NCBI GenBank assembly: GCA_000004985.1
Contig: GG738949.1
DNA length: 43,759 bases
Direction: 5' to 3' (one strand)
Origin: Naegleria gruberi
Taxonomy: Eukaryota
This document shows, one piece after another, positions 1-28,545 of the stretch. The notes below the pieces were generated by a model, which ran no database searches, was not told where the DNA came from, and was given only the letters and a program-made list of their open reading frames with translations. How positions within the stretch are numbered: the first letter of the stretch is position 1; every line of letters starts with the position of its first letter. The position numbers and the translations under genes were made by a program.

Positions 1-514
1 CACTTTCTGATCTATCAACTCCGACCTGACCATTAGAATTAGAACCACAACCCAATGCAAATCCATCTTCAGTAATTGCAATAGCTTCTGTATAGCCCAT
101 AACGACTGAACTAATCTTGAATGGTGATCGAATATATGCAGGATTCTCAGCATCAGAAATTGCGATCCAATTATCACCAAGGCCTCTCATCGAACTAGTT
201 TCACCAAAACTAAACAAAACAGCTTGGGAAGCTTCCAACAGAGAGAAGGATGTTGGTTCGGATTTATCGTTACGATAGGCTATTCTAGCTTTTATCATTT
301 CTTTAAATTTAGCAGTATAGAAAGTAGCCTGATCTTTACGAAACTTGGTATCTTGACTTTGATGGGAGGCATCAATGTGAGGAATACTCATACTAGGAAT
401 AATTCCAATAGCACCAAATGATTTGGATTCACCTTGAAGACCACCCGATCCATTGTTTGAAGTTTCGGTTGATTTTGGTTTCTTCTTGAAAATGTTGGTG
501 ACGAAAGAAAGCAT
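1..514 (-). CDS. RCC1-like (regulator of chromosome condensation / BLIP-II type) repeat protein, N-terminal 171 codons; the 3' part runs off the left edge of the window
   Basis: The reverse complement of 1-514 reads MLSFVTNIFKKKPKSTETSNNGSGGLQGESKSFGAIGIIP...LFSFGETSSMRGLGDN...AIAITEDGFALGCGSNSNGQVGVDRSES with no stop. The ATG is the complement of 512-514 and has an A-rich context. 'TEDGFALGCGSNSNGQVG' matches the RCC1 repeat signature (G.N..GQLG). This ORF is absent from the supplied track because it has no stop inside the window. Confidence 0.5.
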   Translation of the reverse strand, partial: MLSFVTNIFKKKPKSTETSNNGSGGLQGESKSFGAIGIIPSMSIPHIDASHQSQDTKFRKDQATFYTAKFKEMIKARIAYRNDKSEPTSFSLLEASQAVLFSFGETSSMRGLGDNWIAISDAENPAYIRSPFKISSVVMGYTEAIAITEDGFALGCGSNSNGQVGVDRSES

Positions 515-1135
515 TTTTTTTAATGTTCTTCTTGATTCGAAAGTGAAATGTGAAAGGAGAGGAGGCCTTCTTTTGAAGTTACCATTTGGAGAACATTGGA
601 AAGTTACATAATTTCTTATGATACTCCAATAGGGTTTTAAAAATCCTATATCTTGCTCAGTGTGCGCGGGCAGCACCAATGCTCTGGAGATTTGACTGAG
701 ATGAAAATGAGAGGGTGACGGTTACTTTAATGCGGATTAGTCAACTTTAAATTTTTTAAAATGTGGACTAATCTGACTTTAACTTTTTTCACGATTTGAA
801 ACATTTCAATTAAGATTAATTGAATTGATAATTTCCCAATAATAAAACACCACTGATCCACTCATTATCGTTGATACATTACTGACACAAGGACTTCAGG
901 GGTCAATACATGACTCTACAAGCTAACACACACCAAGGTAAAGCCACGGACATGAAAAGTCAATTGTATCAGTAGTACACGGTAGAATTATCAATAATAT
1001 GAGATTACTACTGATAACTTCCTAATAATTTGATACAAGTTGAACCTAACTTGCTAGAACCAACCACAACTTGCCTTGGCAAGGATCTTAAATGATCTTT
1101 GGTTACGATTAAAGCAAATCGGTCTCGGTACATTT

Positions 1136-1171
1136 CATTAATAATTTACATTAAATGTAAATTTATTAATG
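1136..1171. repeat. Imperfect palindrome cattaataatttacatt / aaatgtaaatttattaatg (~17-bp arms)
   Basis: The reverse complement of the 36-mer matches itself with one offset per arm. It lies just downstream of the transposase stop. Confidence 0.6.
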
Positions 1172-1216
1172 AATCTCCTTCATATCATCGGATCAGCTGT
1201 ACCAATTATATATTAA

Positions 1217-2989
1217 TTATTTAATGTTGTTGGTAATCTTTCGGATCGAATTTAAATAAACCTCTTTCATATGTATAACAAAACATTTTGGATGGACAAA
1301 TTCATTACAAGCATTGCATTTGAAGGTTGTATGTGATTTACAATGCTTGCAATATTTACATACCCCATATGATGATTTCGGGTTGTTTTTGTCTGGTAGT
1401 GTGTTGATGGGAAAATGTTGATTTTGTAAAAACTTATTCAATTCCGAAACATTCAAAGGTGATGCAAATGGTTTGCTAATTTCAACAACTCCAAATTGAG
1501 ATGGAGTACACAATCCCACTACTACCTCTTCAATAAACTTTCTTTGTTCCATTCCTCTTTTATGATGTCCTTCCGAAATATCCAATGAATTCTTAGCAAC
1601 AAAAGAATTAACTAATAATAATTTCAGTAATCCATAACAACAAGCTCGAGTCCACTTCCTTTTTCTATGCTTATACAAATATAAACAAAGAGTGGAATCG
1701 AATCTATCAACGGAATTCATGTGCTTGTTGTAATCAATTAATAGCCCAGGTCGTTTACGTTTCCGAGCTTCATTAATTATTTCAGTACTTCCAATAGATG
1801 AAATGATATTCACCTTTGATGAATCATACATTGTCAAAGCACACAATTTCTTATCATCAGAAACAAGAAATTGTGTGTCTCCTTGTTTTGATGTTTTTTT
1901 CTGTAAATAATTTTTAAATAATTCCGAAGGTCTGTCACATCTACAACTCAAAATTGTCTCGACATTATAATCCTTCACTAATGTTTTAGCCAATGAATCT
2001 GATCCAAAGAATTGATCTGCTAAAACAACATATTTCAAATTATCATCTCTTTTTGGTAATTTTTTAACCATTGTTAAAACATAATCCTCCACAGTACTTG
2101 CTTCGTTTTCTGGATTATCCTTTCCGAGATAAATCCAAAAGTGATACATGTAACCATCTCCATCACAAAGTGAAAATAATTTAATTCCTGTAGAATGTGG
2201 TTTTCCAAATACATGTTGTCTTCCTTTCCATCTTCCCTTGAAGGGAATGATTGTTTCGTCAACAGTAACGAAAACATTGGCCTTCCAATACCTTTTAGAT
2301 ATTTCATTTACTTTTTTAGCTAATGCCAAAATATCAAAATGAAATGCAGAATTAACAGCATAGAATAATTCACGTTTAATTACTTTTGAAATGAATGGAC
2401 AATGAAAGTAAGGATTTTTGTTAGTGACTGACCGAAAATAATCATTAGTGGAAGGAAAATGTATCAAACCCATTAAATAAATAATTCCAATAAATATTTT
2501 AATTAAATTACTATCCACAACTAATATTTTGCCTTCATACATAATGCCATTCTTATTACTGTAATTGTTTGTATATTCAACAAAATGTTCCAAAATTTCC
2601 AAGTTCAAATATTGTATAAATATATTATAACTAGTATCGTTTTTGAGGTTGATAGGTTTTCCACTTGCAGAAGAAATTGGGTTATTAAATTTATCTTGTG
2701 TTTTCCATCCGTTAGGAATTGTTGTTGCTGTTTTAATTTTCTTATTATTTGTATTGATTTCGGAAGGAGGTTTTCTCTTATTTTGATTATTATCATTTGA
2801 TTGATTGTTTTGTGATGGAATTTGTGATGAAGAATTATTTAAATTATTATTTTGTGTAGATGATTGAGTAATATTTTGTGATGAATTTTGGGGTGTAGGA
2901 TGGGATCTTGAAATATGTTGTTTTATTCCTCTTTTCGTAAAGCATTTACCACACTGTTGACAAACTACATCCTTCACACCTACTGTCAT
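1217..2989 (-). CDS. piggyBac-family DDE transposase (DDE_Tnp_1_7-like), 590 aa, intact ORF, with an N-terminal C2H2 zinc finger and a C-terminal Cys-rich domain
   Basis: The ATG is the complement of 2987-2989 in an 'aaaaaATG' context, and the stop is TAA (complement of 1217-1219). The protein aligns block-wise to T. ni piggyBac from memory: IKIFIGIIYLMGL ~ IYAFFGILVMTAV; VTVDETIIPFKGR...GIKLFSLCD ~ LTIDEQLLGFRGR...GIKILMMCD (Asp268 equivalent present); VVLADQFFGS ~ ITCDNWFTS (Asp346 equivalent present); LLIDYNKHMNSVDRFD...KWTRACCYGLLKLLLVNSF ~ MVMYYNQTKGGVDTLD...RWPMALLYGMINIACINSF (Asp447 equivalent present). The C-terminus CKYCKHCKSHTTFKCNACNEFVHPKC is the piggyBac CRD. The N-terminus CQQCGKCFTKRGIKQHISRSH is a C-x2-C-x12-H-x4-H finger. 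Residues ~35-75 form an N/Q/S-rich tract. Confidence 0.9.
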   Translation of the reverse strand: MTVGVKDVVCQQCGKCFTKRGIKQHISRSHPTPQNSSQNITQSSTQNNNLNNSSSQIPSQNNQSNDNNQNKRKPPSEINTNNKKIKTATTIPNGWKTQDKFNNPISSASGKPINLKNDTSYNIFIQYLNLEILEHFVEYTNNYSNKNGIMYEGKILVVDSNLIKIFIGIIYLMGLIHFPSTNDYFRSVTNKNPYFHCPFISKVIKRELFYAVNSAFHFDILALAKKVNEISKRYWKANVFVTVDETIIPFKGRWKGRQHVFGKPHSTGIKLFSLCDGDGYMYHFWIYLGKDNPENEASTVEDYVLTMVKKLPKRDDNLKYVVLADQFFGSDSLAKTLVKDYNVETILSCRCDRPSELFKNYLQKKTSKQGDTQFLVSDDKKLCALTMYDSSKVNIISSIGSTEIINEARKRKRPGLLIDYNKHMNSVDRFDSTLCLYLYKHRKRKWTRACCYGLLKLLLVNSFVAKNSLDISEGHHKRGMEQRKFIEEVVVGLCTPSQFGVVEISKPFASPLNVSELNKFLQNQHFPINTLPDKNNPKSSYGVCKYCKHCKSHTTFKCNACNEFVHPKCFVIHMKEVYLNSIRKITNNIK

Positions 2990-3651
2990 TTTTTACTGCG
3001 CAACAATCATGACTTTGAATTTTTAATTAAAAACGTTCATCTAAAAATAAAAAACAAACTACCACCGCCCTTTTTAAAGATTGTATCTCAATAATCTGCA
3101 ATAGCTTTGAGATTGCATTCAAAAGGAAGGTACTGAACAAGATATATTACAACATTTAGTAAATAAATTATATTTAATTTCTTACCTAAATTCATTGGCA
3201 TGATAGTAAGGATGAAGAAAATGAGGACGAGGAGAACATTATGATATTGTTGTTGTTGATGTTGTTGTAACATTTTTTAAGGCTATTAATATCATCATGT
3301 TCATGAACACAGGAGAATACAACGATTAAGCGCGCCCGAGTATATTTGTTTTGATGATATGGCTAAGGAAATAATATTTGTTCTGATGATTAATTAATTG
3401 TTATTGGTTGAGGAATTTAAACGATGGTGTGATGGTGGTAATGATATTAAATAACTGCCTTGGTTGAAGAGTTGATGATAGAGAGTGTGTTGAGTAAATT
3501 TGTGCAATCTATTCATGAAGATTTCTTCTCCGAAATGTATTTTGAGAATTGGTATTGGTATTATTAATCCATCATGATGAGAGCCACAAGCAGTTTTCAC
3601 TAATTTTTTAATTTGTTGTTTTTTGTTTAATTTTCATAACGGAAACAACCG

Positions 3652-5443
3652 NNNNNNNNNNNNNNNNNNNNNNNNNNNNNNNNNNNNNNNNNNNNNNNNN
3701 NNNNNNNNNNNNNNNNNNNNNNNNNNNNNNNNNNNNNNNNNNNNNNNNNNNNNNNNNNNNNNNNNNNNNNNNNNNNNNNNNNNNNNNNNNNNNNNNNNNN
3801 NNNNNNNNNNNNNNNNNNNNNNNNNNNNNNNNNNNNNNNNNNNNNNNNNNNNNNNNNNNNNNNNNNNNNNNNNNNNNNNNNNNNNNNNNNNNNNNNNNNN
3901 NNNNNNNNNNNNNNNNNNNNNNNNNNNNNNNNNNNNNNNNNNNNNNNNNNNNNNNNNNNNNNNNNNNNNNNNNNNNNNNNNNNNNNNNNNNNNNNNNNNN
4001 NNNNNNNNNNNNNNNNNNNNNNNNNNNNNNNNNNNNNNNNNNNNNNNNNNNNNNNNNNNNNNNNNNNNNNNNNNNNNNNNNNNNNNNNNNNNNNNNNNNN
4101 NNNNNNNNNNNNNNNNNNNNNNNNNNNNNNNNNNNNNNNNNNNNNNNNNNNNNNNNNNNNNNNNNNNNNNNNNNNNNNNNNNNNNNNNNNNNNNNNNNNN
4201 NNNNNNNNNNNNNNNNNNNNNNNNNNNNNNNNNNNNNNNNNNNNNNNNNNNNNNNNNNNNNNNNNNNNNNNNNNNNNNNNNNNNNNNNNNNNNNNNNNNN
4301 NNNNNNNNNNNNNNNNNNNNNNNNNNNNNNNNNNNNNNNNNNNNNNNNNNNNNNNNNNNNNNNNNNNNNNNNNNNNNNNNNNNNNNNNNNNNNNNNNNNN
4401 NNNNNNNNNNNNNNNNNNNNNNNNNNNNNNNNNNNNNNNNNNNNNNNNNNNNNNNNNNNNNNNNNNNNNNNNNNNNNNNNNNNNNNNNNNNNNNNNNNNN
4501 NNNNNNNNNNNNNNNNNNNNNNNNNNNNNNNNNNNNNNNNNNNNNNNNNNNNNNNNNNNNNNNNNNNNNNNNNNNNNNNNNNNNNNNNNNNNNNNNNNNN
4601 NNNNNNNNNNNNNNNNNNNNNNNNNNNNNNNNNNNNNNNNNNNNNNNNNNNNNNNNNNNNNNNNNNNNNNNNNNNNNNNNNNNNNNNNNNNNNNNNNNNN
4701 NNNNNNNNNNNNNNNNNNNNNNNNNNNNNNNNNNNNNNNNNNNNNNNNNNNNNNNNNNNNNNNNNNNNNNNNNNNNNNNNNNNNNNNNNNNNNNNNNNNN
4801 NNNNNNNNNNNNNNNNNNNNNNNNNNNNNNNNNNNNNNNNNNNNNNNNNNNNNNNNNNNNNNNNNNNNNNNNNNNNNNNNNNNNNNNNNNNNNNNNNNNN
4901 NNNNNNNNNNNNNNNNNNNNNNNNNNNNNNNNNNNNNNNNNNNNNNNNNNNNNNNNNNNNNNNNNNNNNNNNNNNNNNNNNNNNNNNNNNNNNNNNNNNN
5001 NNNNNNNNNNNNNNNNNNNNNNNNNNNNNNNNNNNNNNNNNNNNNNNNNNNNNNNNNNNNNNNNNNNNNNNNNNNNNNNNNNNNNNNNNNNNNNNNNNNN
5101 NNNNNNNNNNNNNNNNNNNNNNNNNNNNNNNNNNNNNNNNNNNNNNNNNNNNNNNNNNNNNNNNNNNNNNNNNNNNNNNNNNNNNNNNNNNNNNNNNNNN
5201 NNNNNNNNNNNNNNNNNNNNNNNNNNNNNNNNNNNNNNNNNNNNNNNNNNNNNNNNNNNNNNNNNNNNNNNNNNNNNNNNNNNNNNNNNNNNNNNNNNNN
5301 NNNNNNNNNNNNNNNNNNNNNNNNNNNNNNNNNNNNNNNNNNNNNNNNNNNNNNNNNNNNNNNNNNNNNNNNNNNNNNNNNNNNNNNNNNNNNNNNNNNN
5401 NNNNNNNNNNNNNNNNNNNNNNNNNNNNNNNNNNNNNNNNNNN
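3652..5443. other. Assembly gap (1,792 N)
   Basis: Run of N. Confidence 0.99.
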
Positions 5444-7179
5444 CTGGTACAGGAAATACAGATTTGAATGGAGATGGATTGGAAGCGACATTGACCAATC
5501 TTTATCAACCAATTGCTGTAGCTTACTCTCCTACTTCCAGTGAATTATACTTTTCTGATTATTTACATGATAGAGTGAGAAAGATAACCTCTTCAGGATT
5601 GGTTGAAACAGTTGCGGGAGGTATAGGTGATAAGGGATTGGCTGTTAATGCAAAAATCAGAGGTGTTTCATCAATATTACTGGTAGACAATGATTTATAT
5701 ATCTCTGATGCATTCAATTATAGAATTCGTAAAATTTCCCTCTCAACTGGTATTATTGATTCCATTGTTGGAGCATATGCATCTATTTATAATGGCGACA
5801 ACTGGGCCAATCAAACCAATATTAACTATGTATGGGATATGAGAATTCAAAACGGTGAACTTGTATTTGCTGACATGAACAATAACTTAATTAGGAAAAC
5901 AAGTTTATCTGGTAAAGGAAAGGTAACAACCATTGCTGGTATGGGTGCAAACAATGCTTCGATTATTATCGATAATGTCAAGGCAACAAGTGCCTATTTG
6001 AAAAACCCTGGTTCTGTTGCATTCTTGCCAACTGGTGATATGATTATTGCAGAGACAGAAGGTCATATCATTAGAAAGGTTGATTTGAATGGCAATATTT
6101 CACTCATTGCTGGATCATTCTTCCAACCAGGTTTCAATGGTGACTTGTCAGATTCAAAGAATTCTTTATTGTATCAACCAACAGGACTTTCTATTTTACA
6201 GGATGGTAGAATCATCTTCTCAGACTTTGGAAACAATAGAGTGAGAATGTTAACACCATATTGTAAGGATGAAAAGTATTATTTGACTCAATCTTCACAA
6301 GGTATTGTCTGCAACATTACTTCATGTTATGGACTCGCCTACAATGATGCAAAAGTTTGTTCAGGAAATGGAATTTGTTCATCATTGAATAACTGCAGCT
6401 GCTCAAGTGGATATTCTGGAAACGATTGCTCAACTGCTGATATTTGTTCTGTCTTGTCAAGCTCATATGTTTGTACAACAACGTCTCTCAACACAACTGA
6501 AACTCAAGTTACAACAGTTCAAAATGTCACTCAATTGGATTCGAAAACTATCGAGTTCTCATCTACAAGTACTGTCACTGTTTCACTGCCATCAACAATT
6601 TCACAATACTTGACAAGTGTTGATTCAACATTGAAGAATGACACTGTTACTGTTGTCAGTTCTGTTTCATCAGCAAGCAAAGTAACAGAAACTTCTGAGG
6701 TTATTTCACCAGTCATCTCAATTGTTCTTGTCAAGTCAAGTTCTAATCAAAAAATTTCTGTCCAAAATCTCGAAGAACCAATTTCATTATATTTCAATAA
6801 GGTCAACATGACTGTTTCGAATATTGAAACCTTGAATGTAACTTGTATGTATTATGATGAAAGTGAAAAGGTATGGAAATCGGATGGGGTTGAAAGTGAA
6901 ATTACAGAGATTATTCTCCACAACCTTGCTGATGGAAATGTTACCTTGACAATTTCACTTACATGCAAGACTTTCCATTTAACTTCATTTGGAATCATTG
7001 ATCAAAACTACAAGAAGGCAACTACTAACTCTAATACTGACGATTCCACAATCTTGACAGATTACACAGTTTTAATAGGTGCCATTGTTGGTGGTGTTGG
7101 TGGATGTTGTGTTATTGCCACAATTATTACACTCATCATTGTTGTCATTATCTTTGTCAGAAGAAGAGGAAAGAAATAA
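5444..7179 (+). CDS. Type I membrane protein with NHL (six-bladed beta-propeller) repeats, an EGF-like Cys-rich module, a Ser/Thr/Val-rich mucin-like stalk and a C-terminal transmembrane anchor. The 5' end is in the gap.
   Basis: The frame is open from the gap edge, and the track's 'M' at 5464 is TTG. NHL repeat motifs are present (YQPIAVAYSP...LYFSDYLHDRVRKI; LYISDAFNYRIRKI; FSDFGNNRVRML). EGF-like module: CSGNGICSSLNNCSCSSGYSGNDCS. The T/S/V-rich region spans ~6480-6700. TM anchor LIGAIVGGVGGCCVIATIITLIIVVIIF is followed by RRRGKK and the stop at 7177-7179. Confidence 0.7.
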
Positions 7180-7239
7180 ACCAAGATAATCACTTTATAT
7201 TTTACAAATCTGCTATATTGATATAATTGAAACTGTATT

Positions 7240-8169
7240 TTAATTAATAAGTTCAATTACAGTGTTTTCTTGCAAATTCGAAACCAAAGGTTGCAAACAA
7301 ACAATACATGGCAAATGATCCGATGCATTTTCCTTATACTCACTCAATACCTTACTCGAAATCAATTTAAACTGATCCTTTCTTCCAAAAATGTGATCAT
7401 AACTTCCCCACAATGAAAATGGGCCTTTCAGTGGCCAATACCAAGTTGTTTGATTTTCAATAAAATCATGGAAATTCATTTCTTTGAGGAGGGAGGCATA
7501 GTTAGATTGGAATATTCCAGATTGACTTGTTTCGTTGAAATCTCCTAAAATGATGAGTGGATAGGAACATTTTTGTAATGCTTGTTTCGTATAACTCTCA
7601 ACTTCATTTCGTCTTACTGAAACGGTTTGATAGAGAAAGGCACTAATATGTTGTAAATTTCCACCTTCGAATGAGAGAGGAGGTCTCAAATGTAAATTCA
7701 ATACTTGATAATTAAAAGAATCTTCAAGTTTCGAATTCTTTCTTGTCACAATAATATGCATGGCATCAAAATAACTTCCCTCCACATTACTACTCAACAT
7801 TTCCACATCCAAATTGAGATTAGCTTTAGCCATCACTCCAGTTCCACTTGCTAAATAAACATTCGTCTTGGAATGATCCCAAACTTGATTAGGATATTGA
7901 GTAGAAAGTGTTGTACTATTCGAAACTGCAATTTCCCACCCAACATGAGTCTCCTGTAAACAAATCAAATCAACATTATCCACATTCTCCTTCATGGCTT
8001 GTAAAACTCGTTGACCATTATACGAAAGTGCTCCATCATAATTAACACCACCAAAATTCACATTAAACGACATGATTCGAAGAATAGGAAGAGATTTCCG
8101 TGATTCTATTAAATCATTTAAAATAGACTGTGGGTTGCGTAATGATGTATTGTTTGGAGGTAACGACAT
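7240..8169 (-). CDS. Endonuclease/exonuclease/phosphatase (EEP) family protein, 309 aa
   Basis: Complete ORF; the ATG is the complement of 8167-8169 and is preceded by an A-run on the coding strand. N-terminal LRIMSFNVN...DLICLQE and C-terminal SDHLP are EEP-fold hallmarks. Confidence 0.65.
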   Translation of the reverse strand: MSLPPNNTSLRNPQSILNDLIESRKSLPILRIMSFNVNFGGVNYDGALSYNGQRVLQAMKENVDNVDLICLQETHVGWEIAVSNSTTLSTQYPNQVWDHSKTNVYLASGTGVMAKANLNLDVEMLSSNVEGSYFDAMHIIVTRKNSKLEDSFNYQVLNLHLRPPLSFEGGNLQHISAFLYQTVSVRRNEVESYTKQALQKCSYPLIILGDFNETSQSGIFQSNYASLLKEMNFHDFIENQTTWYWPLKGPFSLWGSYDHIFGRKDQFKLISSKVLSEYKENASDHLPCIVCLQPLVSNLQENTVIELIN

Positions 8170-8348
8170 TTTTTTTTGTAAATTTGTGAGTGTTGAACTT
8201 TTTTGTTCGAAATTAATGAATGAAAATTAGTAAAGAACTGTGAACTTTTGATGACGTAAAAGTAATCGTTGCAAACTAAACGATTCAACTTATTATTATT
8301 CAGATATGAATCTGTACATCCAATATTATTTAGTCTTCTCTTTCTCAT

Positions 8349-9440
8349 TTACCATTTTTTACTTTCACAAATTGAATCGACAATTGGGTGAATTTGGATG
8401 AGGAATTCGCTCAATTGCTCATTAAAAGATCCACTTCGCATACTACCCATTGCAGCAGCAATTCTGTTTTTCATGAGAGTTGGAGCGAATTCTGATGGAT
8501 TCTCTAAGGCACATTCAATTGCCATCTTGAATAAGGAAAAATTCTTCTGAGTACTATCGGTATGTATAATATCCAACAAGATTCTAAAAATGTTATCCTC
8601 TGTAATTGCCAACAACTTTTTGTGAATAGCTCTCACATGCACTGGTAAGGCAATCTTGGGGGAGAATAAACTTGAGAAGCATAAGGGAGTATGAGCTGCC
8701 TCTTTGACAATGCTTGGAGATGTTGCAAGATTTTCATACTCTTCCTCTTTCATCTCTACAAATAATGGATAGAGTGCTTCAAAAACTAACATGCAATCAC
8801 TTGGTTTATAGATCCACTTTGCTTGTCTGCATGCTTCACCAACTCTTTGAATAAGGTAGAAAAGAGGATTGGAAGATTTGTAAACTATTTGGAAAATATC
8901 ACAAATTGGTAAAAAGTGCCTTCTCATCTTTTTCAATGATTGCACTATTGAATGGCTCTTCTTTTTGAAATCCGCCATTGATAAGCTGGTATCAATAAAC
9001 AAGTGCACCGGAGAGAAATTCAAATAGTCACTTTTCAATTGTGAAAGAAAATTTTTGTTTTTCTGAATATCCATAATAATATCCACAATTTCAATCCTAA
9101 CATTCTGTATGGAACTGATTAAAAAATCATTACTGCTACAACAAATTTGTGTGATATTGGAGAGCTTAGAGTTCTTGGTTAAAAACTCTTTCAAAACACT
9201 GGAGATTCGATTGATGAAGAACCTGCGANNNNNNNNNNNNNNNNNNNNNNNNNNNNNNNNNNNNNNNNNNNNNNNNNNATGATCCGTTGAACATAATTGG
9301 GATATATTATTGAATGTTGCCAGAGATGTAAATAGCTGTTTAGTTTTTCCCACCACAATATGGCAAGATGAGAATTTTAAATTGGAACTAGTGAAGAGAG
9401 GAATTTTTCCACCTTCCTTTTTGAAACATTTTAATAGCAT
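8349..9440 (-). CDS. Hypothetical protein, ~363 aa, interrupted by a 50-N gap; no domain recognised
   Basis: Long ORF with an ATG at the complement of 9438-9440. The frame continues across the N block only by assumption about gap length. Composition is protein-like and probably helical. Confidence 0.45.
   Translation of the reverse strand: MLLKCFKKEGGKIPLFTSSNLKFSSCHIVVGKTKQLFTSLATFNNISQLCSTDHXXXXXXXXXXXXXXXXXRRFFINRISSVLKEFLTKNSKLSNITQICCSSNDFLISSIQNVRIEIVDIIMDIQKNKNFLSQLKSDYLNFSPVHLFIDTSLSMADFKKKSHSIVQSLKKMRRHFLPICDIFQIVYKSSNPLFYLIQRVGEACRQAKWIYKPSDCMLVFEALYPLFVEMKEEEYENLATSPSIVKEAAHTPLCFSSLFSPKIALPVHVRAIHKKLLAITEDNIFRILLDIIHTDSTQKNFSLFKMAIECALENPSEFAPTLMKNRIAAAMGSMRSGSFNEQLSEFLIQIHPIVDSICESKKW
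9229..9278. other. Assembly gap (50 N)
   Basis: Run of N. Confidence 0.99.
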
Positions 9441-10422
9441 TTTGAACGATATGGATTTGATTGTAGAAAATGGTTTTTACTTGATTCAATAACCCTATTT
9501 ATTCAATATATTGCTGCAAAAATAAATCAATATTTATTAAGTTAACATTATTAAGGCCAAACGAAATGGCGGGTTTCACAAGAGAAATTTAATAAAAAAA
9601 AAGAATAACTCAAGAATAAATGAAGATAAGCTCCGTTGATATACCCTTATTAAACTAGGAAGGAATACAGAATTAACCGACAAATCACGAAAGAAAGATA
9701 AACAACCTTCATCATCAAGAACAGTAAGGAAGAAAATCATGAAGAAATCAACAAAAAGTGGCATTTAAATTCTAGAAGGAAAAGAAATCCACAACAATTT
9801 AAAACTCTTTCTCCCCCTCATTCTGACTCAGCTCAAAAATCCAAATATAAAGAATTTCATCTTCTGCCCTGCAATGTAGTTACCAGCTCGAAGAATTCTA
9901 ATGAAGCAGAAAACATTCTATTTGAAACAGTTATTAAGGAAGAGAAGAAACAATCGTTAAAGAGTCCGTCAAAAAGAGGTGGGGTCCAACCAAGACTGTC
10001 TTGTCGGATAAATGTAAGTATTACATCATCTTGATTAAGAGTTTGATGATTAAAATGTCTAACAAGGTCCAAAAAGTAAGATTTGTGAAATTGTATTCAT
10101 GTATCATGTAAGAAGTTGTCCTTTCCAATTGAAACATTTTTTTGATAAGAAAACTATTTCTAGAATTGAAATTGCCAGAATCAATAAGGGTTCTGAAGTA
10201 AAGGTGTTAAAGAAGAGAGATTGGAGGAAACAAGTTCAAAATTGGAAAGATAAAAGATGAAACTGGATAGAAAAATGTATAAATTCATGCATTTTCCTCA
10301 TTTACAACATTCCAAATATTCTCCATTGTAAAGAAATCAATGAATTGTGAATTTACCTAAATCATTACAAATTCTGATAAATTTCCAAATTAAATAAAAA
10401 ACTCTCAGAGTTTATATGTAAA

Positions 10423-10735
10423 TTACATAACTGGATTTGTAATGATAATGTCAATATCGAAAAGTTGATGGTTTTCTGGTGATTCATGCAAGTATGTTTT
10501 CAGTTTTGCAAGCATTTCCTTCTCACTCTTTGATGTAAATATTGGGAGATATGGTGAGCAAGCAACCATAGTATTCCAACCTCCGCATGCAACACAAACA
10601 GCTTTCAATTGGATATTTCCCCCAGAGTTGATTTTCATAGAGTCTGGGAATAAATTCATTTCTGATAGAGTTGTTTGAGTTTTCAAAATTCCTGGTTGAT
10701 TTTGTTCCTCCTTTGTACTTTGATTGAATCCACTG
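10423..10735 (-). CDS. 3'-terminal coding fragment (~104 codons) of a gene whose upstream part lies in the 13.4-kb gap
   Basis: Open frame from the gap edge to the TAA at 10420-10422 (complement), reading ...AVCVACGGWNTMVACSPYLPIFTSKSEKEMLAKLKTYLHESPENHQLFDIDIIITNPVM*. No domain recognised. It cannot be linked to the ORF at 24117-24699 across 13 kb of N. Confidence 0.4.
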
Positions 10736-13700
10736 NNNNNNNNNNNNNNNNNNNNNNNNNNNNNNNNNNNNNNNNNNNNNNNNNNNNNNNNNNNNNNNNN
10801 NNNNNNNNNNNNNNNNNNNNNNNNNNNNNNNNNNNNNNNNNNNNNNNNNNNNNNNNNNNNNNNNNNNNNNNNNNNNNNNNNNNNNNNNNNNNNNNNNNNN
10901 NNNNNNNNNNNNNNNNNNNNNNNNNNNNNNNNNNNNNNNNNNNNNNNNNNNNNNNNNNNNNNNNNNNNNNNNNNNNNNNNNNNNNNNNNNNNNNNNNNNN
11001 NNNNNNNNNNNNNNNNNNNNNNNNNNNNNNNNNNNNNNNNNNNNNNNNNNNNNNNNNNNNNNNNNNNNNNNNNNNNNNNNNNNNNNNNNNNNNNNNNNNN
11101 NNNNNNNNNNNNNNNNNNNNNNNNNNNNNNNNNNNNNNNNNNNNNNNNNNNNNNNNNNNNNNNNNNNNNNNNNNNNNNNNNNNNNNNNNNNNNNNNNNNN
11201 NNNNNNNNNNNNNNNNNNNNNNNNNNNNNNNNNNNNNNNNNNNNNNNNNNNNNNNNNNNNNNNNNNNNNNNNNNNNNNNNNNNNNNNNNNNNNNNNNNNN
11301 NNNNNNNNNNNNNNNNNNNNNNNNNNNNNNNNNNNNNNNNNNNNNNNNNNNNNNNNNNNNNNNNNNNNNNNNNNNNNNNNNNNNNNNNNNNNNNNNNNNN
11401 NNNNNNNNNNNNNNNNNNNNNNNNNNNNNNNNNNNNNNNNNNNNNNNNNNNNNNNNNNNNNNNNNNNNNNNNNNNNNNNNNNNNNNNNNNNNNNNNNNNN
11501 NNNNNNNNNNNNNNNNNNNNNNNNNNNNNNNNNNNNNNNNNNNNNNNNNNNNNNNNNNNNNNNNNNNNNNNNNNNNNNNNNNNNNNNNNNNNNNNNNNNN
11601 NNNNNNNNNNNNNNNNNNNNNNNNNNNNNNNNNNNNNNNNNNNNNNNNNNNNNNNNNNNNNNNNNNNNNNNNNNNNNNNNNNNNNNNNNNNNNNNNNNNN
11701 NNNNNNNNNNNNNNNNNNNNNNNNNNNNNNNNNNNNNNNNNNNNNNNNNNNNNNNNNNNNNNNNNNNNNNNNNNNNNNNNNNNNNNNNNNNNNNNNNNNN
11801 NNNNNNNNNNNNNNNNNNNNNNNNNNNNNNNNNNNNNNNNNNNNNNNNNNNNNNNNNNNNNNNNNNNNNNNNNNNNNNNNNNNNNNNNNNNNNNNNNNNN
11901 NNNNNNNNNNNNNNNNNNNNNNNNNNNNNNNNNNNNNNNNNNNNNNNNNNNNNNNNNNNNNNNNNNNNNNNNNNNNNNNNNNNNNNNNNNNNNNNNNNNN
12001 NNNNNNNNNNNNNNNNNNNNNNNNNNNNNNNNNNNNNNNNNNNNNNNNNNNNNNNNNNNNNNNNNNNNNNNNNNNNNNNNNNNNNNNNNNNNNNNNNNNN
12101 NNNNNNNNNNNNNNNNNNNNNNNNNNNNNNNNNNNNNNNNNNNNNNNNNNNNNNNNNNNNNNNNNNNNNNNNNNNNNNNNNNNNNNNNNNNNNNNNNNNN
12201 NNNNNNNNNNNNNNNNNNNNNNNNNNNNNNNNNNNNNNNNNNNNNNNNNNNNNNNNNNNNNNNNNNNNNNNNNNNNNNNNNNNNNNNNNNNNNNNNNNNN
12301 NNNNNNNNNNNNNNNNNNNNNNNNNNNNNNNNNNNNNNNNNNNNNNNNNNNNNNNNNNNNNNNNNNNNNNNNNNNNNNNNNNNNNNNNNNNNNNNNNNNN
12401 NNNNNNNNNNNNNNNNNNNNNNNNNNNNNNNNNNNNNNNNNNNNNNNNNNNNNNNNNNNNNNNNNNNNNNNNNNNNNNNNNNNNNNNNNNNNNNNNNNNN
12501 NNNNNNNNNNNNNNNNNNNNNNNNNNNNNNNNNNNNNNNNNNNNNNNNNNNNNNNNNNNNNNNNNNNNNNNNNNNNNNNNNNNNNNNNNNNNNNNNNNNN
12601 NNNNNNNNNNNNNNNNNNNNNNNNNNNNNNNNNNNNNNNNNNNNNNNNNNNNNNNNNNNNNNNNNNNNNNNNNNNNNNNNNNNNNNNNNNNNNNNNNNNN
12701 NNNNNNNNNNNNNNNNNNNNNNNNNNNNNNNNNNNNNNNNNNNNNNNNNNNNNNNNNNNNNNNNNNNNNNNNNNNNNNNNNNNNNNNNNNNNNNNNNNNN
12801 NNNNNNNNNNNNNNNNNNNNNNNNNNNNNNNNNNNNNNNNNNNNNNNNNNNNNNNNNNNNNNNNNNNNNNNNNNNNNNNNNNNNNNNNNNNNNNNNNNNN
12901 NNNNNNNNNNNNNNNNNNNNNNNNNNNNNNNNNNNNNNNNNNNNNNNNNNNNNNNNNNNNNNNNNNNNNNNNNNNNNNNNNNNNNNNNNNNNNNNNNNNN
13001 NNNNNNNNNNNNNNNNNNNNNNNNNNNNNNNNNNNNNNNNNNNNNNNNNNNNNNNNNNNNNNNNNNNNNNNNNNNNNNNNNNNNNNNNNNNNNNNNNNNN
13101 NNNNNNNNNNNNNNNNNNNNNNNNNNNNNNNNNNNNNNNNNNNNNNNNNNNNNNNNNNNNNNNNNNNNNNNNNNNNNNNNNNNNNNNNNNNNNNNNNNNN
13201 NNNNNNNNNNNNNNNNNNNNNNNNNNNNNNNNNNNNNNNNNNNNNNNNNNNNNNNNNNNNNNNNNNNNNNNNNNNNNNNNNNNNNNNNNNNNNNNNNNNN
13301 NNNNNNNNNNNNNNNNNNNNNNNNNNNNNNNNNNNNNNNNNNNNNNNNNNNNNNNNNNNNNNNNNNNNNNNNNNNNNNNNNNNNNNNNNNNNNNNNNNNN
13401 NNNNNNNNNNNNNNNNNNNNNNNNNNNNNNNNNNNNNNNNNNNNNNNNNNNNNNNNNNNNNNNNNNNNNNNNNNNNNNNNNNNNNNNNNNNNNNNNNNNN
13501 NNNNNNNNNNNNNNNNNNNNNNNNNNNNNNNNNNNNNNNNNNNNNNNNNNNNNNNNNNNNNNNNNNNNNNNNNNNNNNNNNNNNNNNNNNNNNNNNNNNN
13601 NNNNNNNNNNNNNNNNNNNNNNNNNNNNNNNNNNNNNNNNNNNNNNNNNNNNNNNNNNNNNNNNNNNNNNNNNNNNNNNNNNNNNNNNNNNNNNNNNNNN

Positions 13701-16700
13701 NNNNNNNNNNNNNNNNNNNNNNNNNNNNNNNNNNNNNNNNNNNNNNNNNNNNNNNNNNNNNNNNNNNNNNNNNNNNNNNNNNNNNNNNNNNNNNNNNNNN
13801 NNNNNNNNNNNNNNNNNNNNNNNNNNNNNNNNNNNNNNNNNNNNNNNNNNNNNNNNNNNNNNNNNNNNNNNNNNNNNNNNNNNNNNNNNNNNNNNNNNNN
13901 NNNNNNNNNNNNNNNNNNNNNNNNNNNNNNNNNNNNNNNNNNNNNNNNNNNNNNNNNNNNNNNNNNNNNNNNNNNNNNNNNNNNNNNNNNNNNNNNNNNN
14001 NNNNNNNNNNNNNNNNNNNNNNNNNNNNNNNNNNNNNNNNNNNNNNNNNNNNNNNNNNNNNNNNNNNNNNNNNNNNNNNNNNNNNNNNNNNNNNNNNNNN
14101 NNNNNNNNNNNNNNNNNNNNNNNNNNNNNNNNNNNNNNNNNNNNNNNNNNNNNNNNNNNNNNNNNNNNNNNNNNNNNNNNNNNNNNNNNNNNNNNNNNNN
14201 NNNNNNNNNNNNNNNNNNNNNNNNNNNNNNNNNNNNNNNNNNNNNNNNNNNNNNNNNNNNNNNNNNNNNNNNNNNNNNNNNNNNNNNNNNNNNNNNNNNN
14301 NNNNNNNNNNNNNNNNNNNNNNNNNNNNNNNNNNNNNNNNNNNNNNNNNNNNNNNNNNNNNNNNNNNNNNNNNNNNNNNNNNNNNNNNNNNNNNNNNNNN
14401 NNNNNNNNNNNNNNNNNNNNNNNNNNNNNNNNNNNNNNNNNNNNNNNNNNNNNNNNNNNNNNNNNNNNNNNNNNNNNNNNNNNNNNNNNNNNNNNNNNNN
14501 NNNNNNNNNNNNNNNNNNNNNNNNNNNNNNNNNNNNNNNNNNNNNNNNNNNNNNNNNNNNNNNNNNNNNNNNNNNNNNNNNNNNNNNNNNNNNNNNNNNN
14601 NNNNNNNNNNNNNNNNNNNNNNNNNNNNNNNNNNNNNNNNNNNNNNNNNNNNNNNNNNNNNNNNNNNNNNNNNNNNNNNNNNNNNNNNNNNNNNNNNNNN
14701 NNNNNNNNNNNNNNNNNNNNNNNNNNNNNNNNNNNNNNNNNNNNNNNNNNNNNNNNNNNNNNNNNNNNNNNNNNNNNNNNNNNNNNNNNNNNNNNNNNNN
14801 NNNNNNNNNNNNNNNNNNNNNNNNNNNNNNNNNNNNNNNNNNNNNNNNNNNNNNNNNNNNNNNNNNNNNNNNNNNNNNNNNNNNNNNNNNNNNNNNNNNN
14901 NNNNNNNNNNNNNNNNNNNNNNNNNNNNNNNNNNNNNNNNNNNNNNNNNNNNNNNNNNNNNNNNNNNNNNNNNNNNNNNNNNNNNNNNNNNNNNNNNNNN
15001 NNNNNNNNNNNNNNNNNNNNNNNNNNNNNNNNNNNNNNNNNNNNNNNNNNNNNNNNNNNNNNNNNNNNNNNNNNNNNNNNNNNNNNNNNNNNNNNNNNNN
15101 NNNNNNNNNNNNNNNNNNNNNNNNNNNNNNNNNNNNNNNNNNNNNNNNNNNNNNNNNNNNNNNNNNNNNNNNNNNNNNNNNNNNNNNNNNNNNNNNNNNN
15201 NNNNNNNNNNNNNNNNNNNNNNNNNNNNNNNNNNNNNNNNNNNNNNNNNNNNNNNNNNNNNNNNNNNNNNNNNNNNNNNNNNNNNNNNNNNNNNNNNNNN
15301 NNNNNNNNNNNNNNNNNNNNNNNNNNNNNNNNNNNNNNNNNNNNNNNNNNNNNNNNNNNNNNNNNNNNNNNNNNNNNNNNNNNNNNNNNNNNNNNNNNNN
15401 NNNNNNNNNNNNNNNNNNNNNNNNNNNNNNNNNNNNNNNNNNNNNNNNNNNNNNNNNNNNNNNNNNNNNNNNNNNNNNNNNNNNNNNNNNNNNNNNNNNN
15501 NNNNNNNNNNNNNNNNNNNNNNNNNNNNNNNNNNNNNNNNNNNNNNNNNNNNNNNNNNNNNNNNNNNNNNNNNNNNNNNNNNNNNNNNNNNNNNNNNNNN
15601 NNNNNNNNNNNNNNNNNNNNNNNNNNNNNNNNNNNNNNNNNNNNNNNNNNNNNNNNNNNNNNNNNNNNNNNNNNNNNNNNNNNNNNNNNNNNNNNNNNNN
15701 NNNNNNNNNNNNNNNNNNNNNNNNNNNNNNNNNNNNNNNNNNNNNNNNNNNNNNNNNNNNNNNNNNNNNNNNNNNNNNNNNNNNNNNNNNNNNNNNNNNN
15801 NNNNNNNNNNNNNNNNNNNNNNNNNNNNNNNNNNNNNNNNNNNNNNNNNNNNNNNNNNNNNNNNNNNNNNNNNNNNNNNNNNNNNNNNNNNNNNNNNNNN
15901 NNNNNNNNNNNNNNNNNNNNNNNNNNNNNNNNNNNNNNNNNNNNNNNNNNNNNNNNNNNNNNNNNNNNNNNNNNNNNNNNNNNNNNNNNNNNNNNNNNNN
16001 NNNNNNNNNNNNNNNNNNNNNNNNNNNNNNNNNNNNNNNNNNNNNNNNNNNNNNNNNNNNNNNNNNNNNNNNNNNNNNNNNNNNNNNNNNNNNNNNNNNN
16101 NNNNNNNNNNNNNNNNNNNNNNNNNNNNNNNNNNNNNNNNNNNNNNNNNNNNNNNNNNNNNNNNNNNNNNNNNNNNNNNNNNNNNNNNNNNNNNNNNNNN
16201 NNNNNNNNNNNNNNNNNNNNNNNNNNNNNNNNNNNNNNNNNNNNNNNNNNNNNNNNNNNNNNNNNNNNNNNNNNNNNNNNNNNNNNNNNNNNNNNNNNNN
16301 NNNNNNNNNNNNNNNNNNNNNNNNNNNNNNNNNNNNNNNNNNNNNNNNNNNNNNNNNNNNNNNNNNNNNNNNNNNNNNNNNNNNNNNNNNNNNNNNNNNN
16401 NNNNNNNNNNNNNNNNNNNNNNNNNNNNNNNNNNNNNNNNNNNNNNNNNNNNNNNNNNNNNNNNNNNNNNNNNNNNNNNNNNNNNNNNNNNNNNNNNNNN
16501 NNNNNNNNNNNNNNNNNNNNNNNNNNNNNNNNNNNNNNNNNNNNNNNNNNNNNNNNNNNNNNNNNNNNNNNNNNNNNNNNNNNNNNNNNNNNNNNNNNNN
16601 NNNNNNNNNNNNNNNNNNNNNNNNNNNNNNNNNNNNNNNNNNNNNNNNNNNNNNNNNNNNNNNNNNNNNNNNNNNNNNNNNNNNNNNNNNNNNNNNNNNN

Positions 16701-26252: not shown

Positions 26253-26409
26253 AAGAATTCCACTTTACAGAAAACTTAACATTTTGATGTGTTATTTTAA
26301 TTCATAAGAATGGAAGAACACTTATTGAGCTTGTCACAAATTTCTGCAAATGAAGGTCTTTCAACATCCTTGTCCCAACATTTTGTCATTATTTCACACA
26401 ACTCTTTCA
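26005..26409. repeat. Segmental duplication, copy A (~405 bp up to the gap). It carries the 3' 82 codons of the START-like gene, a 45-bp intergenic spacer and a minus-strand kinase 3' fragment.
   Basis: Direct repeat of 28051-28454 with about 9 mismatches and indels (~98% identity). Homology begins exactly at ttaacattcc (26005 / 28051). Confidence 0.85.
26297..26409 (-). pseudogene. Duplicated 3' fragment of the TKL kinase gene (last 37 codons ...KELCEIMTKCWDKDVERPSFAEICDKLNKCSSILMN*), truncated at the gap
   Basis: Identical at protein level to 28342-28452. Beyond the 50-N gap the minus strand no longer reads as kinase and is antisense to the LRR gene. Confidence 0.45.
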
Positions 26410-28298: not shown

Positions 28299-28545
28299 AG
28301 AATTCCAATTTACAGAAAACTTAACATTTTGAAGTGTTATTTTAATTCATAAGAATGGAAGAACACTTATTGAGCTTGTCACAAATTTCTGCAAATGAAG
28401 GTCTTTCAACGTCCTTGTCCCAACATTTTGTCATTATTTCACACAACTCTTTCACAACAAGGGCAAGCTTCATCTCTGAATTACGAGAAGATCCAAAAAT
28501 TCCTCCCTTCTCATTTTCCATCAAAAAGGAATTGACATATTCCTT
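28051..28545. repeat. Segmental duplication, copy B. It continues into the 2.9-kb gap.
   Basis: See copy A. The spacing between copies is 2,046 bp, so the duplicated unit may include the LRR and RGS genes. Confidence 0.85.

What the first reader, a model, noticed from the sequence alone, without database searches (positions are those of the whole stretch)
1217..2989. Intact piggyBac-family transposase with a complete DDD catalytic triad, a C2H2 finger at the N-terminus and an Asn/Gln low-complexity insert
The 590-aa ORF has no stops or frameshifts and retains the three catalytic Asp positions: VDET, LADQFFGS and SVDRFD, equivalent to D268, D346 and D447 of T. ni piggyBac. It also has the C-terminal CxxC-rich domain. 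It differs from canonical piggyBac in two ways. It has an N-terminal C2H2 finger. It has a ~40-residue N/Q/S tract coded by aat/caa-rich sequence at ~2760-2900, like the other proteins in this window. It starts with the same 'aaaaaATG' context as neighbouring host genes. Together these suggest either a host-adapted, potentially active element or a domesticated PGBD-type gene. Such elements are not a well-known component of AT-rich amoebozoan-like genomes. TIRs were not identified, so domestication is a live possibility.
Basis: partly seen in the sequence, partly recalled or inferred. Interest (0 to 1): 0.7.

Follow-up and report, generated by a model that had tools for sequence, protein, structure and literature searches.

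The report
Intact piggyBac-type transposase gene in Naegleria
This is a real, undamaged gene for a piggyBac-type "cut-and-paste" transposase sitting between ordinary genes of the amoeboflagellate Naegleria gruberi; it is an ordinary kind of mobile-element gene, with a conserved extra zinc finger at its front end, and whether it can still move could not be settled.

Summary
Window 1217-2989 (minus strand) is a 590-codon ORF that matches Pfam DDE_Tnp_1_7 end to end (E = 7e-44). It aligns to the solved piggyBat and piggyBac transposases, and D244, D325, D428 and D431 sit at the piggyBac D268, D346, D447 and D450 positions. The C-terminal Cys/His-rich domain is complete.

The N-terminal C-x2-C-x11-H-x4-H finger is real and conserved. 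The same motif lies upstream of the core in Acrasis kona, in one unidentified run assembly and in the best protein hit. The 81% N/Q/S tract is a disordered linker between finger and core, not an insert in the catalytic domain.

The host is Naegleria gruberi (Heterolobosea), not an amoebozoan, and the window is one gap-ridden 43,759-bp scaffold.

No terminal inverted repeats or TTAA duplication flank the ORF, but a 1.8-kb gap starts 662 nt upstream. The nearest relatives are only 37-44% identical. The one N. lovaniensis homolog found is frameshifted, non-syntenic on the side tested and from another subfamily.

I favour a transposon-lineage copy (0.58) over a domesticated host gene (0.30). It is a new member of a known kind, of modest interest.

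The parts
1217..2989 (-). Complete 590-codon ORF plus stop codon (1217-1219): piggyBac-superfamily transposase
   Evidence: ORF listing. Pfam PF13843 E = 7.4e-44. PDB piggyBat and piggyBac hits at E about 1e-20. Foldseek on the AF2 model: 9c0f and 6x67 at E about 1e-23.
2900..2962 (-). N-terminal C2H2-type zinc finger, residues 10-30 (C-x2-C-x11-H-x4-H)
   Evidence: tblastn of residues 1-30 finds the same motif upstream of the core in Acrasis kona L002 6859-6948 and in L006 2683-2772. C10, C13, K15, F17, H25 and H30 are invariant in alignment A2. There are weak PDB hits to ZNF473 and ZBTB38 fingers. AF2 did not model it (pLDDT about 30-37).
2780..2890 (-). N/Q/S low-complexity linker, residues 34-70 (81% N+Q+S)
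   Evidence: Read from the translation. Predicted disordered, pLDDT < 50.
2732..2779 (-). Basic stretch KRKPPSEINTNNKKIK (residues 71-86); putative bipartite nuclear localisation signal (inferred)
   Evidence: Sequence. A comparable basic run (KRRRRQRF) precedes the IPNGF/IPNGW motif in A. kona. The function is inferred, not tested.
1601..2632 (-). DDE_Tnp_1_7 catalytic core, residues 120-463, with D244 (2258-2260), D325 (2015-2017), D428 (1706-1708) and D431 (1697-1699)
   Evidence: Pfam domain limits. Alignment to 6x67 and 9c0f. Invariant columns in A1. Codons read. pLDDT is mostly 85-97.
1271..1360 (-). C-terminal cysteine/histidine-rich domain, residues 544-573 (C544, C547, C558, C561, H566, C569, H573)
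   Evidence: Translation. C544 and C547 are invariant and the rest follows the clade consensus C..C...C..C...H..C...H. Weak PHD and C1 Pfam hits.
2990..2999 (-). A-rich translation start context (GTAAAAAATG on the sense strand)
   Evidence: Same context at the RCC1-like and EEP neighbour genes.
1134..1174 (-). Imperfect 19-bp-stem hairpin 45-85 nt downstream of the stop codon; contains AAUAAA on the sense strand; probable 3' UTR or polyadenylation region (inferred)
   Evidence: RNA fold -14.1 kcal/mol, z = -3.4, 1 of 200 shuffles as stable. Sequence read.

Best explanation
The ORF is a structurally intact transposase gene of a piggyBac-superfamily transposon lineage that lives in heteroloboseans and unidentified soil or freshwater protists. 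It is a selfish-element copy in the N. gruberi genome (autonomous, or immobilised only recently), not a conserved host gene.

**Shown:**
- The protein has the full piggyBac core fold.
- All four acidic residues used by T. ni piggyBac are present.
- The C-terminal Zn-binding Cys/His domain is complete.
- A conserved N-terminal C2H2-type finger is joined to the core by a disordered N/Q/S linker and a basic stretch.

**Inferred from established knowledge of piggyBac (the structures 6x67, 6x68 and 9c0f, and the biochemistry behind them):**
- The protein would enter the nucleus and dimerise.
- It would bind element ends through the C-terminal domain, with the extra N-terminal finger adding DNA-binding specificity.
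- It would nick the 3' ends, form and reopen hairpins on the transposon ends, and integrate with a 4-bp staggered cut, classically at TTAA.

The ends it would act on were not found. The 5' end may lie in the 1,792-nt gap that starts 662 nt upstream of the ATG, or the copy may have lost its ends.
For: **Family and integrity**
- Pfam match, PDB match, AF2 model pTM 0.74 and Foldseek.
- D244, D325, D428 and D431 are invariant in A1.
- The window protein keeps 54 of 61 clade-conserved positions, as many as the best relatives.

**Transposon-like evolutionary behaviour of the lineage**
- The exhaustive search gives 5,656 hits, but the best are only 37-44% identical over long alignments.
- The distribution is patchy: metagenomes, run assemblies, Acrasis kona and N. 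lovaniensis.
- The N. lovaniensis copy is frameshifted, has lost the first finger Cys and is 40% identical, whereas a host kinase from this same scaffold has a 62% ortholog there.
- That copy groups with P0001 and P0002 at 61-62% identity, so it is a different subfamily.
- The L006 copy has an in-frame stop.
- The A. kona copy sits between the two halves of a Mutator-like transposase reading frame, inside an element with 73-nt TIRs and a 7- to 9-bp duplication. That placement suggests past mobility.
- No window neighbour (RCC1-like, NHL/EGF, EEP) lies next to the N. lovaniensis copy.

**Context**
- The ORF sits on a small, 55%-N scaffold next to a gap, which is typical of repeat-associated assembly trouble. 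This is weak evidence.
Against: - No TIR and no TTAA-C...G-TTAA pair occurs in the visible flanks. There is no GTTAA at all in 2986-3651. The best TTAA-anchored pair is 14/20 in AT-rich sequence, and the best free inverted repeat is 15 nt with one mismatch, which is chance level.
- Only one copy exists in the about 20 kb of readable window.
- Spacing to neighbours is gene-like, about 700 nt to the RCC1-like gene start. Codon usage matches host ORFs (RSCU r = 0.90), and the start context and N/Q/S tract are host-like. All of these also fit a long-resident or domesticated gene.
- No canonical TTAA-flanked TIRs were found around any relative either, so the ends of this clade are undefined.
- Genome-wide copy number and expression could not be measured.
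Confidence: 0.58

Rival explanations
1. It is a domesticated, single-copy piggyBac-derived host gene (PGBD-like, as with PGBD5 or ciliate PiggyMac). It has lost its transposon ends, is kept intact by selection, and uses its retained DDD nuclease and DNA-binding domains for a host function in N. gruberi.
For: - The ORF is intact and all catalytic and Zn-ligand residues are retained, with 89% of clade-conserved positions kept.
- No TIR or TTAA duplication is visible in the flanks.
- There is a single copy in the window.
- Codon usage, A-rich start context, low-complexity tract and intergenic spacing are all host-like.
- Domesticated piggyBac genes with a complete triad are well documented in other protists (PMC9942806 and PMC3861120).
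Against: - No ortholog-grade relative was found. The best hit in 1.84 billion representatives is 37-44% identical, although the N. lovaniensis and Willaertia magna proteomes are in the source collection.
- The N. lovaniensis homolog is decayed, belongs to a different subfamily and is not syntenic on the side tested.
- Other clade members show neutral decay or sit inside other transposons.
- The upstream flank is unreadable beyond 662 nt, so the absence of ends is not established.
Confidence: 0.3
2. It is an immobile leftover: a transposase ORF whose element ends were deleted or mutated, with no host function, and still intact only because the loss was recent.
For: - There are no recognisable ends in 662 nt upstream and 1,216 nt downstream.
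- Relatives in N. lovaniensis and L006 show exactly this fate at a later stage, with frameshifts and a stop.
Against: - A 590-codon ORF with 54 of 61 conserved positions intact shows no decay at all.
- The strongly host-like codon usage suggests long residence, during which an unselected ORF at 30% GC would be expected to pick up stops (inference).
Confidence: 0.1
3. It is foreign DNA (prey, contaminant or mis-join) wrongly placed on a Naegleria scaffold.
For: - The scaffold is small and 55% N.
- The ORF is absent from the annotated N. gruberi proteins in the collection.
Against: - The ORF is on one uninterrupted contig (1-3651) with the 5' part of an RCC1-like gene.
- Base composition and codon usage match the other ORFs of the scaffold.
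- The scaffold carries a gene 100% identical to an N. gruberi predicted protein.
- The nearest named relatives are also heteroloboseans.
- Absence from the protein catalogue is expected if transposon-like models were filtered out (inference).
Confidence: 0.02

Closest known systems
Trichoplusia ni piggyBac transposase (PDB 6x67/6x68) and Myotis piggyBat transposase (PDB 9c0f)
   Same: - Same Pfam family over the whole core.
- Same fold (Foldseek E about 1e-23, TM 0.55-0.70).
- Same four acidic residues, a C-terminal Cys-rich Zn domain, and a similar length (590 versus 594 and 578 aa).
   Different: - Only 20-23% identical in the structural alignment.
- It has an N-terminal C2H2-type finger followed by an N/Q/S linker; the solved chains show no counterpart to either in these alignments.
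- No TTAA-flanked 13- to 19-bp TIRs were found here.
Acrasis kona KAL0476640.1 (P0003) and the unnamed copy in run SRR25266748 (L006)
   Same: - These are the closest relatives with the same architecture: an extreme N-terminal M..(V)KD..C..C.K.FT..G...HI...H finger, a basic stretch, the IPNG(W/F) motif, the core and the Cys-rich domain.
- They are 39-44% identical to the window protein.
   Different: - The A. kona gene has introns (GTAAGT follows the finger exon) and lies inside a Mutator-like element.
- The L006 copy has an in-frame stop.
- The two are 55% identical to each other but only about 40% identical to the window protein.
Naegleria lovaniensis XP_044542202.1 (P0024) and the piggyBac-class repeats reported for that genome (PMC6125883)
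   Same: - Same genus and same superfamily.
- The finger lies next to the (I/V)PEGWK motif.
- It shows that piggyBac-type elements occur in Naegleria.
   Different: - 40% identical and from a different subfamily (61-62% to P0001 and P0002).
- Frameshifted, with the first finger Cys lost.
- Different neighbours.
- Bounded by roughly 80-nt inverted repeats about 5 kb apart, with no duplication.
Domesticated piggyBac genes that keep the DDD triad (human PGBD5; ciliate PiggyMac, Tpb2 and BPgm)
   Same: An intact catalytic triad and Cys-rich domain with no recognisable transposon ends in the visible flanks (PMC9942806).
   Different: Those genes are defined by conserved orthologous position and purifying selection, or by a demonstrated role in DNA elimination. 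Neither is shown here, and the one congeneric homolog found is not orthologous.

Membership tests
piggyBac-superfamily transposase (protein family, Pfam PF13843 DDE_Tnp_1_7) | Significant full-length match to the family profile | tested here: met
   150.9 bits against a cut-off of 22.4, E = 7.4e-44, profile positions 2-349 of 349.
piggyBac-superfamily transposase (protein family, Pfam PF13843 DDE_Tnp_1_7) | DDD catalytic triad (plus the fourth Asp) at the positions of D268, D346, D447 and D450 | tested here: met
   D244, D325, D428 and D431 align to them and are invariant among relatives.
piggyBac-superfamily transposase (protein family, Pfam PF13843 DDE_Tnp_1_7) | C-terminal cysteine-rich Zn-binding domain | tested here: met
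   C544, C547, C558, C561, H566, C569 and H573 follow the clade consensus.
piggyBac-superfamily transposase (protein family, Pfam PF13843 DDE_Tnp_1_7) | piggyBac transposase fold | tested here: met
   AF2 pTM 0.74 with a confident core. The top Foldseek PDB hits are 9c0f and 6x67 at E about 1e-23; the next is Tn5 at 1e-6.
Complete piggyBac-like element (PBLE, as defined in Bouallegue et al. 2017, PMC5381638) | Two terminal inverted repeats (about 12-19 bp, starting with C) on both sides of the transposase | tested here: inconclusive
   None is visible in 1-1216 against 2990-3651 or 5444-10735. A 1,792-nt gap begins 662 nt upstream of the ATG and could hide the 5' end.
Complete piggyBac-like element (PBLE, as defined in Bouallegue et al. 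2017, PMC5381638) | TTAA target-site duplication | tested here: inconclusive
   No TTAA pair with matching inner sequence rises above the shuffled expectation. The best is 14/20, reached or approached in 1-3% of shuffles. The gap caveat applies here as well.
Complete piggyBac-like element (PBLE, as defined in Bouallegue et al. 2017, PMC5381638) | Multiple copies in the genome, or evidence of mobility | not testable with these tools
   The N. gruberi assembly is not searchable here. There is only one copy in the window.
Domesticated PGBD gene (as defined in PMC5381638) | Single copy at an orthologous position in different species | tested here: inconclusive
   The only congeneric homolog found (N. 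lovaniensis L013) is non-syntenic on the side tested and from another subfamily. The orthologous RCC1-like/NHL interval of other species could not be inspected.
Domesticated PGBD gene (as defined in PMC5381638) | Ka/Ks indicating selection | not testable with these tools
   No relative is closer than about 40-50% amino-acid identity, so synonymous sites are saturated.
Classical C2H2 zinc finger | C-x2-4-C-x12-H-x3-5-H with a conserved hydrophobic core | tested here: inconclusive
   The ligand pattern and the F17 core residue are conserved in four homologs, but the spacer is 11 rather than 12 residues in three of them. No Pfam zf-C2H2 hit was found and AF2 gave low confidence. Zn binding was not tested.

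The most novel reading that the evidence does not exclude
The ORF represents an undescribed finger-bearing branch of the piggyBac superfamily, confined to heteroloboseans and allied uncultured protists. In N. gruberi it has been co-opted as a catalytically competent host gene, for example for a programmed DNA rearrangement or for sequence-targeted cleavage directed by the conserved N-terminal finger. A second possibility is that this branch uses ends and target sites unlike the canonical TTAA and short TIRs, which would explain why no canonical ends were found around any member examined.
Probability: 0.1. Interest if true: 0.6.

Novelty: new member of a known kind. Interest (0 to 1): 0.3.

Why it matters
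If the copy is active, it would be a native cut-and-paste element in Naegleria. The papers I could search list piggyBac-class repeats in this group only in one RepeatMasker table (PMC6125883). Its ends would then be worth defining.

If it is domesticated, it would add a discoban example to the recurrent co-option of piggyBac transposases seen in ciliates and vertebrates.

The conserved N-terminal finger defines a recognisable subgroup whose gene models are routinely truncated in public annotations, so the subgroup is under-reported. None of this changes what is known about how piggyBac enzymes work.

Tried and rejected
- **Word-indexed homolog searches.** The full protein and the core alone found nothing useful: 0 hits and two hits at 26-27% identity. 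The exhaustive HMMER search was needed.
- **Exact-product look-ups.** Neither the ORF nor two N. gruberi neighbours are on record, so the N. gruberi genome is not in that index. I could therefore get no copy count or gene models.
- **TIR searches in the window.** I tried generic inverted repeats, TTAA-anchored pairs with shuffles, C...G termini with any target-site duplication, and blastn-short of the downstream flank against everything upstream including beyond the gap. All stayed at chance level. Candidates I considered and dropped:
  - the pair 647-661 / 3132-3146;
  - TTAA at 1151 with TTAA at 3174;
  - the lone TTAAC at 779, which has no partner.
- **Relatives' inverted repeats.** Searching the window with the A. 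kona and N. lovaniensis repeats gave no match.
- **Canonical ends around relatives.** None were found in L001, L003-L007 or L012. The perfect TTAA pair in A. kona turned out to be internal to the 73-nt TIRs of an enclosing Mutator-like element. The inferred insertion junctions there showed no TIR or TTAA.
- **Shared accessory ORFs.** None are shared among the loci.
- **Non-coding RNA.** No tRNA or Rfam element occurs in 1-3651.
- The metagenome locus search with the 12-sequence alignment failed; a narrower alignment returned six short contigs that added nothing.
- **Literature.** The N. gruberi genome paper is not held. I found no paper describing an N-terminal C2H2 finger on piggyBac transposases.
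Full report
**1. What is there**

Window 1217-2989 on the minus strand is one uninterrupted ORF of 590 codons that starts at an ATG. At about 30% GC, roughly 8% of random codons are stops, so a stop-free run of this length is not a chance event.

Evidence that it is a piggyBac-family transposase:
- It matches Pfam DDE_Tnp_1_7 (PF13843) from profile position 2 to 349 of 349. The score is 150.9 bits against a cut-off of 22.4, E = 7.4e-44.
- Its only strong matches among solved structures are the piggyBat (9c0f, E = 1.3e-20) and T. ni piggyBac (6x67, E = 2.3e-20) transposases.
- An AlphaFold2 model built on 12 sequences is confident over residues 90-590 (pTM 0.74).
- With that model, Foldseek returns 9c0f and 6x67 at E about 1e-23. 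The next hit is Tn5 transposase at 1e-6.

**2.

*Catalytic residues.* The HMMER alignment to 6x67 places VTVD244ET on LTID268EQ, LAD325QFF on CD346NWF, and SVD428RFD431 on GVD447TLD450. All four Asp are invariant in an alignment with the eleven closest long relatives (A1). I read their codons directly in the DNA.

*C-terminal domain.* It reads C544-x2-C547 ... C558-x2-C561-x4-H566-x2-C569-x3-H573 and follows the clade consensus.

*N-terminal finger.* It reads C10-x2-C13-x11-H25-x4-H30, and it is not an accident of this copy.
- tblastn with residues 1-30 finds MPRAVKDTQCPQCSKMFTAQGVNRHITAVH upstream of the Acrasis kona core.
- It also finds TTQPKDTACPHCDKMFTKQGLTNHIRAKHP upstream of the core in an unidentified run assembly, L006.
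- The best protein hit, P0001, carries CEHCSKTFKSKKELRGHLKKEH next to its core.
- C10, C13, K15, F17, H25 and H30 are invariant in all four (A2).
- In A. kona the finger exon ends at a GTAAGT splice donor. That explains why public gene models lack the finger and why only one of the 150 best protein hits shows it.
- Caveats: there is no Pfam zf-C2H2 hit, and AF2 gives pLDDT 30-37 for this part. The fold itself therefore rests on motif conservation.

*N/Q/S tract.* Residues 34-70 (window 2780-2890) are 81% N+Q+S. The tract lies between the finger and a basic stretch, KRKPPSEINTNNKKIK, in a region predicted to be disordered. It is a linker, not an insert in the enzyme.

*Start context.* The A-rich context is shared with the neighbouring RCC1-like and EEP genes.

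**3. Whose genome it is**

A 605-codon ORF elsewhere in the window is 100% identical to an NCBI 'predicted protein [Naegleria gruberi]'. The longest contig on record for that protein is 43,759 bp, which is exactly the window length. The window is therefore a whole small scaffold of N. gruberi, a heterolobosean (Discoba), not an amoebozoan.

About 55% of the scaffold is N-runs. The readable neighbours are ordinary genes:
- an RCC1-like gene whose ATG lies about 700 nt downstream of the transposase stop;
- an NHL/EGF membrane protein;
- an endonuclease/exonuclease/phosphatase-family protein;
- RGS, LRR and kinase genes.

**4. Relatives**

The exhaustive search of 1.84 billion cluster representatives gives 5,656 hits at E <= 1e-3. 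The best are only 37-44% identical over long alignments, and about 50% over short fragments. No hit resembles an annotated N. gruberi model of this ORF or a close paralog, although N. gruberi proteins are in the source collection.

The named or traceable relatives are:
- A. kona KAL0476640.1;
- N. lovaniensis XP_044542202.1;
- many metagenome and run-assembly contigs.

Pairwise comparison shows two subfamilies. The window protein groups loosely with A. kona and L006: it is 39-43% identical to each, and they are 55% identical to each other. The N. lovaniensis copy is 61-62% identical to P0001 and P0002 but only 40% identical to the window protein.

By contrast, the host kinase on this scaffold has a 62% ortholog in N. 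lovaniensis and a 60% ortholog in Willaertia magna. The N. lovaniensis copy is therefore not an ortholog. It is also:
- frameshifted, reading in frames 2, 1 and 2;
- missing the first finger cysteine;
- without any of the window's neighbour genes in the 10 kb available on one side.

The L006 copy has an in-frame stop.

The A. kona copy lies on the opposite strand between the two halves of a reading frame that carries Mutator-type motifs (CVFHFMK, NNFIENK and a SWIM-like CGCDYC...C). That frame sits inside a 5.9-kb unit with 73-nt, 99%-identical TIRs and a 7- to 9-bp flank duplication. Pfam did not confirm the Mutator assignment.

Decay, patchiness and nesting in another element are how transposons behave, not how conserved host genes behave.

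**5. Ends**

I found no terminal inverted repeats.
- The generic search gave nothing flanking the ORF beyond a 15-nt pair with one mismatch. About two such pairs are expected by chance.
- The TTAA-anchored comparison peaked at 14/20 in low-complexity AT sequence. Shuffles reached or approached this 1-3% of the time.
- No GTTAA occurs anywhere in 2986-3651, and only one TTAAC occurs downstream, at 779.
- blastn-short between the downstream flank and all readable upstream sequence, including beyond the gap, gave nothing above 15 nt.
- The inverted repeats that enclose the A. kona and N. lovaniensis copies have no counterpart in the window.

Two limits apply. A 1,792-nt gap starts 662 nt upstream of the ATG, and the inverted repeats enclosing the relatives lie 1.8-2.8 kb upstream of their genes. 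In addition, no canonical TTAA-flanked TIRs could be found around any relative, so the ends used by this clade are unknown.

In the nomenclature of Bouallegue et al. 2017 (PMC5381638), the locus is at present 'PGBD-like'. That means a transposase with no demonstrated TIR. It is shown to be neither a complete PBLE nor a domesticated PGBD.

**6. Integrity and host adaptation**

The window protein keeps 54 of 61 positions that are at least 80% conserved among its relatives. This is as good as the best of them.

Its codon usage correlates with the pooled host ORFs at r = 0.90, while host ORFs correlate with each other at 0.59-0.91. Its GC3 of 0.22 is slightly below theirs, 0.26-0.38. This suggests long residence, or an origin in a similar genome. 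It fits both a resident transposon and a domesticated gene.

**7. Most likely mechanism**

*Shown:* all sequence and fold features needed for piggyBac-type catalysis are present.

*Inferred from the piggyBac and piggyBat structures and biochemistry:*
- a nuclear, dimeric enzyme;
- binding of element ends through the C-terminal Zn domain;
- DDD/Mg-dependent nicking, hairpin formation and hairpin opening at the transposon ends;
- integration with a 4-bp stagger.

The conserved N-terminal finger most plausibly adds DNA-binding specificity for element ends or for targets. The basic stretch most plausibly serves nuclear import.

I rate a selfish transposon-lineage copy (mobile now or until recently) at 0.58, a domesticated host gene at 0.30, an unselected relic at 0.10, and foreign or mis-assembled DNA at 0.02.

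**8. Novelty and verdict**

The protein family, its chemistry and its occurrence in protists are known.
- piggyBac-class repeats are listed for N. lovaniensis: 29 fragments, 23.6 kb (PMC6125883).
- Entamoeba invadens is among the amoebozoan species surveyed for piggyBac-like elements (PMC5381638).
- That 2017 survey lists no discoban.
- I found no paper describing an N-terminal C2H2 finger on a piggyBac transposase.

I file the locus as a new member of a known kind, with a conserved domain-architecture twist. Interest is modest (0.3). The question of active versus domesticated needs the whole genome, the filled gap and cross-species synteny.

Noticed in passing
window 26005-26409 and 28051-28454: A 405-nt direct duplication at 97.8% identity. 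The first copy ends at a 50-nt gap and the second lies about 90 nt before a 2.9-kb gap. It is probably unmerged overlap or haplotype redundancy in the draft assembly, not biology.
   Followed up: no
window 3652-5443, 10736-24116, 28546-31466 and 36575-42319, plus three gaps of 50-72 nt: About 55% of this whole-scaffold window is N-runs. Any statement about what is absent near the ORF is limited by this.
   Followed up: partly
window 726-782: A pair of short inverted and direct motifs (TTTAATGCGGATTAGTCAACTTT and AATGTGGACTAATCTGACTTTAA, 11 nt apart) lies in the intergenic region between the transposase stop and the RCC1-like gene start. It ends at the only TTAAC in that flank. It could be a promoter element or a remnant; no partner was found upstream.
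   Followed up: partly
L002 (Acrasis kona JAOPGA020000074.1) 5008-10905: A 5.9-kb unit has 73-nt, 99%-identical TIRs containing three TAGTAAAAAT sub-repeats, and a 7-bp (CTCTAAT) or 9-bp (ACTCTAATT) flank duplication. It encodes on one strand a reading frame with Mutator-type motifs (no Pfam hit) that is split by the piggyBac-like gene on the other strand. No TIR or TTAA was found at the inferred junctions. How the piggyBac-like gene got there is unexplained.
   Followed up: partly
L013 (Naegleria lovaniensis PYSW02000061.1) 7095-7174 and 12023-12098: Inverted repeats of about 80 nt (86% identity over 78 nt, with 23-nt and 35-nt near-perfect blocks) lie 5 kb apart and enclose the decayed piggyBac-like copy. 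There is no flank duplication. Both traceable heterolobosean relatives thus sit between long inverted repeats, which may or may not be coincidence.
   Followed up: partly
P0004, P0009 and P0014 (metagenome and NCBI contigs L003, L005): Related transposases at 29-34% identity to the window protein carry an N-terminal Cys-rich C-x-C-type module (for example CSTRCTKGCKGCVCAKKGERCDAKCRCNNC) where this clade has the C2H2 finger. P0001 adds a SAP-like segment. N-terminal DNA-binding modules seem to be swapped among these lineages.
   Followed up: no
window 1217-2989 versus public protein sets: The exhaustive search returned no hit above about 50% identity, so the ORF has no counterpart among N. gruberi proteins in the collection, while other genes of the same scaffold do. 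Filtering of transposon-like models at annotation would explain this, but that is my inference.
   Followed up: partly
window 3088-3273 and 3394-3600 (minus strand): Two short ORFs (61 and 68 aa) lie between the transposase start and the gap. The first is hydrophobic with a poly-Q start and an A-rich ATG context. Neither was tested against any protein library here, so they may be exons of a gene lost in the gap or may be spurious.
   Followed up: no
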